Assembly (NCBI GenBank): GCA_018712605.1
Contig: DVGR01000075.1
Span: 1-54,826 of the forward strand
Direction: 5' to 3'
DNA length: 54,826 nt
From: Candidatus Choladousia intestinigallinarum
GTDB taxonomy: Bacteria; Bacillota; Clostridia; Lachnospirales; Lachnospiraceae
Shown: in pieces, positions 2,101 to 46,404 of the stretch
Position numbering within the stretch: position 1 is the stretch's first letter
Layout: each line of letters opens with the position of its first letter
Translations under genes and position numbers: made by a program
The notes under the pieces: generated by a model
What the model saw: only the letters and a program-made list of their open reading frames with translations
Databases searched by the model: none
What the model was told of the DNA's origin: nothing

Positions 2101-2172
2101 GCGCGAGTGGCTCAGTGGTGGAGTATCGCCTTGCCAAGGCGAGGGTCGCGGGTTCGAATCCCGTCTCGCGCT
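2101..2172 (+). tRNA. tRNA-Gly (GCC)
   Basis: Acceptor stem GCGCGAG/CTCGCGC, anticodon arm TCGCC-TTGCCAA-GGCGA, T loop GGTTCGAATCC; CCA not encoded. Confidence 0.97.
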
Positions 2173-8327: not shown

Positions 8328-8490
8328 TCCGTGGCTTTTATGCGTGGCGGTGCCTGCGCCAGCAGGCATGTAAGTTTACTATGGGAAAACAGCCCAAAGG
8401 ACGTTCCATAGGAACAAAAGTGCGCATCGCCGCGCGAAGCGCTTTTTATGATATAGGAAAGTGAGAACTTTCCTATATCATAAAAAAAAC
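8328..8490. repeat. Palindromic REP-like intergenic element
   Basis: The 40-bp segment 8328-8367 matches the reverse complement of 39053-39092 at 38/40; perfect 20-bp inverted repeat 8443-8462/8467-8486 with loop GAGA. Confidence 0.75.
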
Positions 8491-15546: not shown

Positions 15547-15575
15547 TTTACTTTGCCCCTTTAAACTGTTATAAT
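15547..15575 (+). promoter_or_regulatory. Sigma-A promoter upstream of the phenylacetate-CoA ligase leader
   Basis: TTTACT-17 nt-TATAAT with extended -10 TG at 15567-15568. Confidence 0.7.
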
Positions 15576-15579
15576 TTCT

Positions 15580-15841
15580 TATAAGTCCAGTCTCAAAGCA
15601 GGGACTCATGGACTGCTCGCAGGCCATGAAGGCCATGCTTTCGAGACGACAACAGGGATGAGGAAGGAAGGCGGCAGCCTGGATTCCGAATGCCTGTTAG
15701 GATTTCGGGAGTGCGCAGCACGGAGAAATCCGGGGACTTATATTTAATACTGAAGTCCCCTCAAAAGTCCCCTCAAAGCAGGGACTCATGGACTGCTCGC
15801 AGGCCATGAAGGCCATGCAGTCCATGCTTTCGAGACGACAA
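15580..15841 (+). repeat. Structured, internally duplicated leader element
   Basis: Identical 47-bp direct repeat at 15592-15638 and 15772-15818, each followed by TTTCGAGACGACAA; terminal TATAAGTCC/GGACTTATA inverted repeat; 12-bp tandem duplication at 15753-15776. Confidence 0.9.
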
Positions 15842-15877
15842 TGGGTAGATAAAACATTTGAAAGGATGATGAATACG

Positions 15878-17185
15878 ATGGAACATTATTACCAGCCGGA
15901 AATTGAATGTGCCTCCCAGGAGCAGATCAGGGCATGGCAGGATGAACGGCTTGTAAAACAGGTACAGAATGTATGGGACAACGTGCCTTATTACCGAAAA
16001 AAAATGGAAGAAAAGGGAGTCACACCCGCAGATATCAAATCTGCCGCTGATCTGCACAAACTCCCCTTCCTGACCAAGGACGACCTGCGGGAAGCTTATC
16101 CCTATGGCCTCCTGGCAAGGCCTCTTGAGGACTGTGTCCGTATCCAGTCCACCAGCGGCACCACAGGCCGCCGTGTTGTTGCCTTTTACACCCAGCATGA
16201 TATTGATCTCTGGGATGAATGCTGTGCCCGGGCTATTATGGCTGCCGGCGGAACCAATAAGGATGTCTGCCATGTATGCTACGGCTACGGTCTGTTTACC
16301 GGAGGCCCCGGATTGAACGGCGGTTCCCACAAGGTGGGCTGCCTGACGCTTCCTATGTCTTCCGGAAATACTGAGCGACAGATTCAGTTCATGTGCGATC
16401 TGGGTTCCACCATTCTCTGCTGCACTCCTTCTTACGCCGCCTATCTGGCTGAGAGTATCATTGAGAGGGGCGTCCGTGACAAAATCAAGCTGAAAGCCGG
16501 CATTTTCGGCGCAGAGGCATGGACGGAAGAGATGCGGCATGATATTGATGAGAAGCTTGGGATCAAGGCATACGATATCTATGGCCTTACAGAGATTTCA
16601 GGGCCTGGTGTTTCCTTTGAATGCAGCGCTCAGACAGGTATGCATATCAATGAGGACCATTTCATTGCGGAAATTATCAATCCCCAGACCGGCGAAGTTC
16701 TTCCCGATGGAGAAAAGGGCGAGCTGGTATTTACCAGTATTACCAAAGAAGCTTTCCCCCTGCTAAGGTACCGCACCAGAGATATCTGCGTGCTGACCCG
16801 GGAAAAATGTTCCTGCGGAAGGACTCACGTAAAAATGAGCAAGCCTATGGGCCGGAGCGATGATATGCTGATCGTGAAGGGCGTCAATGTATTCCCGTCC
16901 CAGATCGAAACAGTTCTTATGAATAAGGGTTATCCTGCAAACTACCAGATCCTGGTAGATCGCGTAAACAACAGCGATACCATTGAAGTTCAGGTGGAAA
17001 TGACACCGGAGATGTTCTCCGACAGCATCAGCCAGGTTACTGCAAAGGAAAGAGAGCTGGTGGCAGATCTCAAGGCAATGCTTGGCATTTACGCCCAGGT
17101 GAAGCTGGTGGCTCCCAAGACGATTACCCGCAGCGAGGGCAAGGCTGTCCGGGTTATTGACAAGCGAAACCTTTATAAAAACTGA
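15878..17185 (+). CDS. paaK: Phenylacetate--CoA ligase family protein
   Basis: STSGTTG, YGYGLFTGG, GAEAW, DIYGLTE, LRYRTRD, GRSDDMLIVKGVNVFPSQIE and GKAVRVID motifs; start set at MEHYYQPE. Confidence 0.92.
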   Translation: MEHYYQPEIECASQEQIRAWQDERLVKQVQNVWDNVPYYRKKMEEKGVTPADIKSAADLHKLPFLTKDDLREAYPYGLLARPLEDCVRIQSTSGTTGRRVVAFYTQHDIDLWDECCARAIMAAGGTNKDVCHVCYGYGLFTGGPGLNGGSHKVGCLTLPMSSGNTERQIQFMCDLGSTILCCTPSYAAYLAESIIERGVRDKIKLKAGIFGAEAWTEEMRHDIDEKLGIKAYDIYGLTEISGPGVSFECSAQTGMHINEDHFIAEIINPQTGEVLPDGEKGELVFTSITKEAFPLLRYRTRDICVLTREKCSCGRTHVKMSKPMGRSDDMLIVKGVNVFPSQIETVLMNKGYPANYQILVDRVNNSDTIEVQVEMTPEMFSDSISQVTAKERELVADLKAMLGIYAQVKLVAPKTITRSEGKAVRVIDKRNLYKN

Positions 17186-17220: not shown

Positions 17221-17646
17221 ATGACTGTAAAACAGATTTCTGTCTTTTTGGAAAATAAACCTGGAAAGCTGGCTGATTTTACCAAAATCCTCTCCCAGAA
17301 CGGTATTAATATGCGCGCTCTGTCTCTGGCTGAGACTTCGGATTTCGGTATTCTCCGTCTGATCGTGGATGATACATATAAGGCTTCCACTCTTTTAAAG
17401 GATGAGGGCTTTGTATTTTCCATTACAAAAGTGCTGGCTGTGGCGATTCCTGATCAGCCCGGCAGCCTGAACACCGTAATTGAGATTCTTGGCAGCGCCC
17501 AGATCAATATTGAATATATGTACGCCGTGACCACCCATGCAAAGGGTCTGGCCTACATGATCTTCCGTGTTGCAGACAACACGGCGGCCATTGACGCTCT
17601 TACGAAAAACGGCGTCAAAGTAATCTGCCAGGATGAATTTGAATAA
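17221..17646 (+). CDS. Tandem ACT-domain protein
   Basis: KQISVFLENKPGKL..DFGILRLIV..PDQPGSL..INIEYMYA; typical partner of PaaK-family ligases; SD AAAGGAG. Confidence 0.9.
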   Translation: MTVKQISVFLENKPGKLADFTKILSQNGINMRALSLAETSDFGILRLIVDDTYKASTLLKDEGFVFSITKVLAVAIPDQPGSLNTVIEILGSAQINIEYMYAVTTHAKGLAYMIFRVADNTAAIDALTKNGVKVICQDEFE

Positions 17647-21156: not shown

Positions 21157-21230
21157 GTGCGTTTAGCTCAGCTGGATAGAGCGTTTGGCTACGGACCAAA
21201 AGGTCGGGGGTTCGAATCCTCTAACGCACG
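21157..21230 (+). tRNA. tRNA-Arg (ACG)
   Basis: Acceptor GTGCGTT/AACGCAC, D arm GCTC..GAGC, anticodon arm TTTGG-CTACGGA-CCAAA, T loop GTTCGAATC. Confidence 0.97.
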
Positions 21231-45181: not shown

Positions 45182-45267
45182 ACCTATCCTCCTGACACTT
45201 TTATGTATATCGCCTGTTTCGTCCTTTACTCTATAAGAAACTTGCGCAACCCGCCGCAGGATTCTTT

Positions 45268-46404
45268 TTATAAGAAAGAAGTTACCAGATTGATTACCAT
45301 ACCCCCTGCGATTACAGATGCGATCTGGCCGGATACATTAGCCCCTGCCGCATGCATCAGCAGAATATTTCCTGGATCCTCCTTCAGTGCCATTTTCTGG
45401 ATTACACGGGAGGACATGGGGAATGCTGAGATCCCAGCTCCTCCAATCATAGGATTGATCTTCTCTTTTGAGAAAAGGTTAATCACCTTGGCCAAACAAA
45501 CGCCGCCAATGGTATCAAAGACAAAGGCAAACAGACCGATAAGCATAATCAGAATCGTGTCCACCGCCACAAAAGATTCCGCCTGCATACTGAAGGCAAT
45601 AGTAATTCCCAGCAGCAGAGTGATCAGGTTGGAAAGCATGTTCTGGGCAGCATCGGACATGGTATTCAGAACGCCGCACTCCCGGATCAAGTTTCCGAAC
45701 ATCAAGAATCCTACCAGCGCCACAGAAGTAGGGGCAATCAGCCCTACAATAAAGGTTACGCAGATGGGGAAGGCAATCCTTACGGTCTTGGTTACAGACG
45801 CAGGCTCATACTTCATGCGGATCATTCGCTCTTTCTTTGTAGTAACCAGCTTAATGGCAAAGGGCTGAATAATGGGCACAAGAGCCATATAAGAATAGGC
45901 TGCCACGGCGATGGCGCCGATGTAGTTTGAATCCAGGACCTGGGAAACCAGAATGGAGGTGGGGCCGTCCGCCGCGCCGATAATTCCGGTAGCGGCCGCA
46001 TCCTTGATATCAAATCCCAGCAGCACTGCCAGGAGAATTGCGGCAAAGATTCCAAACTGGGCGCCCGCTCCAAACAAAAACATCTTCGGATTTGACAGAA
46101 GCGGCCCGAAGTCGATCATCGCTCCAATTCCGATAAATAAAAGAATGGGCATGGCCTCCGAAGCCTCAATGCCGGTCTCGAACAGCCACTGAATAATACC
46201 GTGTGTCTCACCTACTCCGTTCAGCACCTGATCCAGAACACCGGTAGAAGGAAGATTTACGAGAATCGCACCAAAGCCCATGGGAAGAAGCAGGGAAGGC
46301 TCATAATCCTTCTTGATGGCAAGCCAAATCAGAACAATGCCGATCACATACATTACAATATGCTTCCAGGTCAGCGCCAGAAAGCCTTCAACAAGAAATT
46401 CCAT
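45268..46404 (-). CDS. oadB: Sodium-translocating decarboxylase beta subunit
   Basis: EPSLLLPMGFG, GIGAMIDFGP, GIIGAADGPT, AAYSYMALVPIIQP, GAGISAFPMSSR. Confidence 0.92.
   Translation of the reverse strand: MEFLVEGFLALTWKHIVMYVIGIVLIWLAIKKDYEPSLLLPMGFGAILVNLPSTGVLDQVLNGVGETHGIIQWLFETGIEASEAMPILLFIGIGAMIDFGPLLSNPKMFLFGAGAQFGIFAAILLAVLLGFDIKDAAATGIIGAADGPTSILVSQVLDSNYIGAIAVAAYSYMALVPIIQPFAIKLVTTKKERMIRMKYEPASVTKTVRIAFPICVTFIVGLIAPTSVALVGFLMFGNLIRECGVLNTMSDAAQNMLSNLITLLLGITIAFSMQAESFVAVDTILIMLIGLFAFVFDTIGGVCLAKVINLFSKEKINPMIGGAGISAFPMSSRVIQKMALKEDPGNILLMHAAGANVSGQIASVIAGGMVINLVTSFL

What the first reader, a model, noticed from the sequence alone, without database searches (positions are those of the whole stretch)
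15580..15741. Four-way-junction structured RNA candidate starting at the predicted TSS of the phenylacetate-CoA ligase/ACT operon
Seen: directly after an extended -10 promoter the sequence folds by eye into P1 TAAGTCC/GGACTTA enclosing three arms. P2 is GTCTC-AAAGCA...TGCTTT-C-GAGAC; P3 is AACAGG..GGAA..AGGC-GGCA-GCCT..TTCC..CCTGTT with purine-rich internal loops; P4 is GGATTTC-GGGA-GTGC-GCA-GCAC-GGA-GAAATCC. The 3' strand GGGGACTT (15732-15739) can instead pair with AAGTCCCC (15753-15760 or 15765-15772), a mutually exclusive switch-like pairing. It matches no riboswitch or T-box I recognise. Inference: an undescribed cis-regulatory RNA for aromatic acid/amino-acid metabolism, or a cruciform MITE/REP composite with TATAAGTCC ends that landed in the leader.
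Basis: partly seen in the sequence, partly recalled or inferred. Interest (0 to 1): 0.7.

Follow-up and report, generated by a model that had tools for sequence, protein, structure and literature searches.

The report
Known Clostridiales-1 repeat in paaK leader
The folded 160-base structure in front of the phenylacetate-CoA-ligase-like gene is real, but it is one of dozens of scattered copies of an already catalogued motif (Rfam Clostridiales-1) and is missing from the same spot in two close relatives, so it is most likely a small jumping-DNA passenger rather than a riboswitch.

Summary
The four-way junction is real (z = -6.8). It is a full-length member of Rfam RF01699, Clostridiales-1 (110 bits, cut-off 48). 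This genome has 61 matches, 48 over the cut-off, on either strand and beside unrelated genes. Two close relatives keep the same promoter and paaK start with a ~40-bp leader and no element; 0 of 8 other paaK-like loci carry it. The 'switch' pairing comes from a head-to-tail partial second copy, found at all 8 full-length loci of this subfamily. Sister subfamily A has terminal inverted repeats and mostly 7-bp target duplications (14 of 34 versus 0.5 expected). 76 of 81 copies carry C(GNA)G or C(GNNA)G DNA mini-hairpins on one strand, suggesting the fold is selected in single-stranded DNA. No mobilising enzyme was found (Y1 transposase and reverse transcriptase tested). The scan has reported this repeat before in at least 8 other genomes. 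Ordinary as a finding; the family's mechanism stays open.

The parts
15547..15575 (+). Host sigma-70-type promoter candidate (TTTACT-17-TATAAT, extended -10); not part of the element
   Evidence: conserved in G030 and G078, which lack the element
15580..15742 (+). Full Clostridiales-1 copy (subfamily 'C', my label), four-way junction P1-P4
   Evidence: RF01699 110.4 bits, model 1-166 at 15582-15740; fold
15590..15647 (+). P2 arm; distal part is hypervariable between copies with compensatory changes
15651..15698 (+). P3 arm with tandem GA/GA mismatch; capped by GCGGCAGC (15671-15678), which fits the GCGNNAGC DNA mini-hairpin
   Evidence: motif defined in PMC13037366
15700..15731 (+). P4 arm, capped by GCGCAGC (15713-15719), which fits the GCGNAGC DNA mini-hairpin
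15753..15776 (+). 12-bp local duplication (AAGTCCCCTCAA twice) at the start of the second copy; source of the 'alternative pairing'
   Evidence: families D4, I5, I6
15765..15841 (+). Second, 3'-truncated head-to-tail copy (P1 5' strand plus P2); carries a 9-nt insertion that perfects its hairpin in this allele and is absent in another
   Evidence: I2; L085; X16: 9 left out at 15813
15878..17185 (+). Phenylacetate-CoA-ligase-like gene (TIGR02155 503 bits, below the equivalog cut-off of 646); start codon inferred from the GAAAGGA at 15860-15866
17221..17646 (+). ACT-domain-pair protein
   Evidence: Pfam PF19571
14080..15447 (-). Divergent MATE efflux transporter (left flank)
   Evidence: TIGR00797 above cut-off

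Best explanation
15580-15841 is a full copy plus a truncated second copy of the multi-copy Clostridiales-1 repeat (Rfam RF01699), present just downstream of the predicted paaK promoter in this species and absent from two close relatives, and most likely a non-autonomous mobile element that inserted there. Shown: family membership, dispersal, lineage-specific presence, tandem partial copy, 7-8-bp target duplications in sister subfamily A. Inferred mechanism (about 50%): the + strand folds as single-stranded DNA, is recognised by an enzyme supplied in trans (not identified), and is copied into T-rich sites, typically just after TTAC/TTAT. Copying starts at the element's left end and can run on into a second round that stops at a variable point, often at a short microhomology. 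Selection for mobility, not for gene control, would maintain the covarying fold. The copy is probably transcribed passively as the paaK 5' leader; it has no terminator and ends about 20 nt (second copy) to 120 nt (full copy) before the ribosome-binding site.
For: RF01699 110.4 bits. 61 matches, 48 over cut-off, in a 2.97-Mb, 87%-complete genome. Next downstream ORF is same-strand for 28, opposite for 26, none for 7 of 61 (crude ORF caller). 54 proteins (53 flanking the top 30 loci plus the ACT protein) fall in unrelated families; 7 had no hit at 1e-8. Element absent at 4 of 4 subfamily-C sites tested in G030 and at 3 of 3 syntenic ones in G078. Near-identical dispersed copies in G076. Subfamily A: exact 5-10-bp direct repeat abutting both ends in 14 of 34 (ten 7-bp, three 8-bp, one 5-bp) versus a permutation mean of 0.49, max 4 of 5000; internally deleted copies keep both ends and the duplication (L178-L180). 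42 of 56 first copies have TTA[CT] within 12 nt upstream versus 22% of AT-rich controls; at the C30 site the T-run plus TTTACT is host sequence in G030. All 8 full-length subfamily-C loci are followed by a second copy; starts fall at element positions -1 to 11 and ends at 34-164. C(GNA)G/C(GNNA)G hairpins occur in 76 of 81 distinct copies on + versus 11 on - and 7.9% of random windows; the triloop N takes all four bases (GCA 28, GAA 21, GGA 17, GTA 14); C(GNYA)G 32 outnumbers C(GNRA)G 16. The RNA versions of these mini-hairpins are considerably less stable (PMC13037366, passages).
Against: No mobilising enzyme found: no PF01797 or PF00078 match in this incomplete genome; no RF01699 near 30 Y1 loci; no element near 25 RT loci; no longer coding version seen in G000, G076 or viral contigs. 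No target duplication at this copy, and its empty-site leader differs between G030 and G078, so the exact junction and ancestral state are not resolved. 5'-truncated pieces of subfamilies A and B also exist, so the end asymmetry is clear only for subfamily C. None of 4 same-species DNA runs shows an element-free allele, so there is no evidence of current movement here. Copies are not independent, so loop counts overstate significance; G(CKYG)C loops (51) and non-C-closed GNRA loops (38) are also compatible with RNA. Part of the TTAC motif may belong to the element in subfamily B.
Confidence: 0.85

Rival explanations
1. Mechanistic rival: a classical MITE, moved as double-stranded DNA by a DDE transposase that recognises terminal inverted repeats; internal folding is incidental.
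For: Subfamily A has GATG...CATC imperfect terminal inverted repeats, 7-8-bp duplications in 14 of 34, and internal deletions that keep both ends.
Against: Does not explain strand-specific covarying internal structure, tandem 1.x copies with variable right ends at 8 of 8 subfamily-C loci, or flipped 3' tails (L102, L114). No autonomous partner seen, but DDE families were not searched by profile.
Confidence: 0.25
2. Mechanistic rival: a SINE-like element retro-copied from RNA by a borrowed reverse transcriptase with template jumping.
For: Variable duplication length (5, 7, 8), variable (GAT)n at left junctions, truncations, and tandems of different subfamilies (L096, L098); Rfam curates it as an sRNA; + strand folds better in 31 of 31 with RNA parameters.
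Against: + strand also folds better in 31 of 31 with DNA parameters; loops fit DNA mini-hairpins rather than GNRA; several repeat-rich genomes have no RVT_1 match (G000, G008, G035; incomplete MAGs); 0 of 25 RT loci carry the element.
Confidence: 0.15
3. Mechanistic rival: a REP/BIME- or IS200/IS605-type element moved by an HUH Y1 transposase.
For: TTAC-like 5' target (TTAC as the IS608 target is recalled); P4 preceded by GTAG in many copies, as in REPs (REP definition in 10.1101/279083, passages); ssDNA-type loops.
Against: Peel-and-paste gives no target duplication (recalled), yet subfamily A has them. No Y1 in G000; 0 of 30 Y1 loci with an Rfam match. The one direct adjacency is an IS605 (tnpA-tnpB) interrupting a copy (L165); one partial tail in L077 was not followed up. 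In this copy the tetranucleotide is TTAG, not GTAG.
Confidence: 0.12
4. A dedicated cis-regulatory RNA or riboswitch controlling the paaK/ACT operon.
For: Starts 5 nt after a good extended -10; an RNA-library contig runs from 15662 into paaK, while the divergent MATE gene is uncovered in 4 of 4 RNA runs (contigs only, DNA carry-over not excluded); the alternative GGGGACTT/AAGTCCCC helix appears in the full-leader MFE (ensemble frequency 0.0002).
Against: Absent from 8 of 8 other paaK-like loci in the genus, including the orthologues; dispersed beside unrelated genes in both orientations; no terminator-like site; the alternative helix is a by-product of tandem duplication; only 8 of 56 copies follow a -10-like hexamer versus 20% of AT-rich controls (5 of 10 in subfamily C, mostly weak matches); Weinberg 2010 scored it as not cis-regulatory.
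Confidence: 0.02

Closest known systems
Clostridiales-1 RNA motif, Rfam RF01699 (Weinberg et al. 2010, PMC2864571)
   Same: Full-length model match (1-166, 110.4 bits, E 2.8e-24), same four-way junction and conserved internal loops, Clostridiales gut host range.
   Different: Nothing that removes membership. Rfam types it 'Gene; sRNA'; here it behaves as a mobile repeat and extends beyond the model (tandem partial copy; 3' tails in subfamilies A and B).
Bacterial MITEs (RUP, Correia, ERIC; names recalled)
   Same: Short, non-coding, intergenic, multi-copy, lineage-specific; TIRs and target duplications in subfamily A.
   Different: Strand-specific covarying four-way fold; 7-8-bp rather than TA duplication; tandem truncated copies; no TIR or TSD shown for this subfamily-C copy beyond P1; no cognate transposase identified.
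REP/BIME/REPIN elements and TnpA_REP (RAYT) (10.1101/279083, passages read)
   Same: GTAG-like tag before an interrupted hairpin (P4), tandem arrays, ssDNA-type structure.
   Different: Much larger branched unit; P4 not dispersed as inverted doublets; no RAYT or Y1 gene flanked by copies in the loci tested; target duplications present.
Riboswitches / T-boxes
   Same: Position in a 5' leader, purine-rich internal loops.
   Different: No Rfam cis-regulatory match in the window (3 gathering hits: RF01699 and two tRNAs), no gene-class association, no expression platform.

Membership tests
Clostridiales-1 (RF01699) | Covariance-model score above gathering threshold (48 bits), full length | tested here: met
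   110.4 bits, model 1-166
Clostridiales-1 (RF01699) | Four-way junction P1-P4 with covariation | tested here: met
Clostridiales-1 (RF01699) | Exists as a discrete small RNA | not testable with these tools
   RNA runs are contigs only; one spans the element's 3' half into paaK
Riboswitch / cis-regulatory leader | Consistently upstream of one gene class, in sense orientation | tested here: not met
   28 same / 26 opposite / 7 none of 61; unrelated neighbours; 0 of 8 other paaK-like loci
Riboswitch / cis-regulatory leader | Expression platform (terminator or RBS sequestration coupled to the aptamer) | tested here: not met
   0 terminator-like sites; RBS about 120 nt beyond P1; centroid leaves it unpaired
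Riboswitch / cis-regulatory leader | Ligand binding | not testable with these tools
   needs in-line probing
MITE | Dispersed multi-copy, non-coding, with empty orthologous sites | tested here: met
MITE | Terminal inverted repeats and target-site duplication | tested here: inconclusive
   met for subfamily A (14 of 34); not seen at this subfamily-C copy
MITE | Autonomous IS sharing the termini | tested here: inconclusive
   none seen in G000, G076 or viral contigs; DDE profiles not searched
REP/RAYT or IS200/IS605 non-autonomous element | Y1 HUH transposase flanked by or sharing ends with the repeat | tested here: not met
   (only top or selected Y1 loci were examined)
REP/RAYT or IS200/IS605 non-autonomous element | No target duplication; short 5' target motif | tested here: inconclusive
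   TTA[CT] enriched (42 of 56) but duplications present in subfamily A

The most novel reading that the evidence does not exclude
The 'Clostridiales-1 RNA' is not an RNA gene. It is a branched single-stranded-DNA mobile element of gut Lachnospiraceae that spreads by target-primed copying with staggered 7-bp duplications and run-on tandem copies, using a trans-acting enzyme that is neither a Y1 HUH transposase nor a reverse transcriptase. That would be a mode of bacterial repeat amplification distinct from MITEs and REPs.
Probability: 0.25. Interest if true: 0.65.

Novelty: already known. Interest (0 to 1): 0.15.

Why it matters
For this locus, little: it removes a false riboswitch candidate and shows that Clostridiales-1 hits in leaders should be read as insertions. 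For the family, the evidence that an Rfam 'sRNA' is a mobile repeat with DNA-type hairpin caps and 7-bp target duplications gives a testable handle on a motif listed without function in 2010. It also warns against reading its metagenomic abundance as regulatory-RNA signal, as one 2026 preprint does in passing (10.64898/2026.05.24.727482, passages).

Tried and rejected
Y1 transposase as partner: none in G000; 31 of 63 genus genomes have one; Rfam scan of the 30 returned loci gave no RF01699; BLAST of those plus 20 G076 stretches gave one IS605 inserted into a copy, a distant 3' tail in L166 and a partial tail in L077. Reverse transcriptase: none in G000, 39 of 63 genomes have one, 0 of 25 loci carry the element. 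Longer autonomous element: end-pattern searches in G000, G076 (47 left ends, 25 right ends; 7 stretches around right ends fetched) and viral contigs (19 loci, mostly one repeated short remnant) showed only short forms. Plasmids: no match; phages: one 30-bp match. Same-species empty allele: no skipping joint in 4 DNA runs; three bridge the left junction, X11 has no cover there; one metagenome contig (L085) also carries the element. Preferential insertion at transcription starts: not supported family-wide. A strict replication-strand bias looked unlikely from mixed orientations along G076 C1 but was not tested against GC skew. Strand folding energy does not separate RNA from DNA. Literature: 'Clostridiales-1' (5 papers) and 'RF01699' (5 papers), plus searches, showed no paper on the motif's function or mobility among the listings. 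Weinberg's Additional File 1 (.DOC, motif comments) could not be read and may already note the multi-copy nature. No protein structure, complex or homolog searches were run; they were not relevant.

Full report
Observation. The sequence at 15580-15742 folds as described (MFE -77 kcal/mol, z = -6.77, 0 of 200 shuffles). A sigma-70-like promoter with extended -10 ends at 15575. The alternative pairing exists, but its partner AAGTCCCC is the start of a second head-to-tail copy of the element's 5' half (15765-15841), preceded by a 12-bp local duplication.

Identity. A gathering-threshold Rfam scan of the whole window gave three hits: two tRNAs and RF01699 Clostridiales-1 at 15582-15740, full length, 110.4 bits against a cut-off of 48. 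Weinberg et al. 2010 (PMC2864571; I saw the table row and supplement rows, not Additional File 1) list it as RNA y, cis-regulatory n, riboswitch n, with 206 representatives.

Dispersal. The window's genome (2.97 Mb, 279 contigs, 87% complete) has 61 matches, 48 over the cut-off. They fall in three subfamilies that I call A, B and C; this copy is C. With a crude ORF caller that sometimes called ORFs across the elements, the next downstream ORF is on the same strand for 28, the opposite strand for 26 and absent for 7. Pfam on 54 proteins (flanks of the top 30 loci plus the ACT protein) gave unrelated families: ABC transporters, amidase, IMPDH, ThiI, acetate kinase, citrate synthase, ThrRS and others. 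Seven had no hit, and none was a transposase or RT. One other AMP-binding enzyme has a copy behind it, not in front. The subfamily-C pattern also hit 9 loci in 4 named Lachnospiraceae/Blautia MAG records.

Empty sites. G030 (87-88% identical in paaK) and G078 (84%) have the same MATE-paaK arrangement, the same promoter and the same pre-start sequence, with about 40 bp in place of about 265 bp. Those 40 bp differ between the two, so the ancestral junction cannot be fixed. Three more subfamily-C sites are also empty in G030, and two of them in G078 (the third is not syntenic there). At the ackA/yceD site the T-run ending TTTACT is host DNA and the right junction falls on a CTTTC microhomology. 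None of 8 other paaK-like loci in the genus carries the element. Within the species I found no empty allele: four DNA runs show no skipping joint and three bridge the left junction. Two alleles of the second copy exist; the window's has a 9-nt insertion that makes its hairpin perfect, and L085 and run X16 lack it.

Mechanistic clues. (i) Subfamily A has imperfect terminal inverted repeats. 14 of 34 regex-defined complete copies from G000, G003, G004, G017, G027 and G076 have an exact direct repeat abutting both ends (ten 7-bp, three 8-bp, one 5-bp) against 0.49 expected, max 4 in 5000 permutations; at least one right end (C122) was mis-called and was left in the count. (ii) 42 of 56 first copies have TTA[CT] within 12 nt upstream against 22% of AT-rich controls. 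Only 8 of 56 follow a -10-like hexamer against 20%, so sitting at a TSS is not a family trait. (iii) All 8 full-length C loci are followed by a further copy, with near-fixed left ends and variable right ends. 5'-truncated A and B pieces also occur, which limits this argument. (iv) 76 of 81 distinct copies carry a C(GNA)G or C(GNNA)G hairpin on the + strand versus 11 on the - strand and 7.9% of random windows, with N free in the triloop. This copy has GCGCAGC and GCGGCAGC, exact matches to the GCGNAGC/GCGNNAGC DNA mini-hairpins, whose RNA versions are reported as considerably less stable (PMC13037366, abstract and passages). Copies share ancestry, and some loops fit RNA equally well, so this is suggestive only. 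(v) No enzyme was found; the only direct adjacency is an IS605 that interrupts a copy in G076.

How it likely works. Shown: a dispersed, lineage-specific repeat inserted between a conserved promoter and a conserved translation start. Inferred: non-autonomous mobility (about 90%); a folded ssDNA intermediate copied into T-rich sites by an unidentified trans enzyme, with run-on copying making the partial second copy (about 50%). Rivals are a DDE-moved MITE (25%), RT-mediated copying (15%) and Y1 HUH (12%). RNA-library contigs cover paaK and, in one run, the element's 3' half but never the divergent MATE gene. This is consistent with passive transcription as a leader, but contigs cannot show strand, start or level.

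Comparison and novelty. It is a member of RF01699 by the family's own test. It works like a MITE-type non-autonomous repeat; full MITE membership is inconclusive for this copy. It fails the testable riboswitch criteria. Earlier notes of this scan reached the same reading in at least 8 other genomes (unchecked AI notes, consulted after I had formed my reading); none concerns this genome. Searches listed no paper on the motif's mobility, but most subscription papers and Weinberg's Additional File 1 were not visible. Verdict: already known, interest 0.15; the open family-level question of mechanism would merit about 0.65 if the ssDNA target-primed reading proved true.

Noticed in passing
window 8328-8380 (+): 5'-truncated 3' tail of a subfamily-B Clostridiales-1 element, below Rfam detection, followed by further hairpin repeats up to about 8480.
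   Followed up: partly
window 45225-45270 (+); G000 C79, C130, C119, C178, C230, C261: A second small palindromic repeat beginning TTTACTCTATAGGAAAC and often continuing into an ATGGAT-loop hairpin; occurs alone or attached behind subfamily-B copies.
   Followed up: no
window 15813-15826: 9-nt insertion that is an inverted copy of the hairpin's 5' arm, making it perfect; looks like quasi-palindrome template switching and is polymorphic within the species.
   Followed up: partly
window 15788: An ATG inside the second copy is in frame with paaK and makes ORF callers add about 30 probably spurious N-terminal residues.
   Followed up: no
L165 (G076:C20:1-930): IS605-type element (tnpA, which looks frameshifted, plus tnpB) inserted inside P2 of a subfamily-A copy, right after TTTGAA.
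   Followed up: partly
G000 210-nt subfamily-B copies (e.g. C145:12789-12998); L089; L158: An extra ~50-nt GTAG-tagged hairpin module is inserted before P4 in subfamilies A, B and C, suggesting module exchange between subfamilies.
   Followed up: no
L096, L098, L102, L114 (G076): Tandems of two different subfamilies separated by the target-duplication sequence, and copies whose 3' tail hairpin is flipped.
   Followed up: no
subfamily C loci C70, C116, C261 in G000: P1 extends by complementarity into locus-specific flanks (e.g. CCATA/TATGG), and C163 shares C70's spacer without the matching left flank, so composites may be re-copied as units.
   Followed up: no
window 2101-2172 and 21157-21230: Two tRNA genes.
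   Followed up: no
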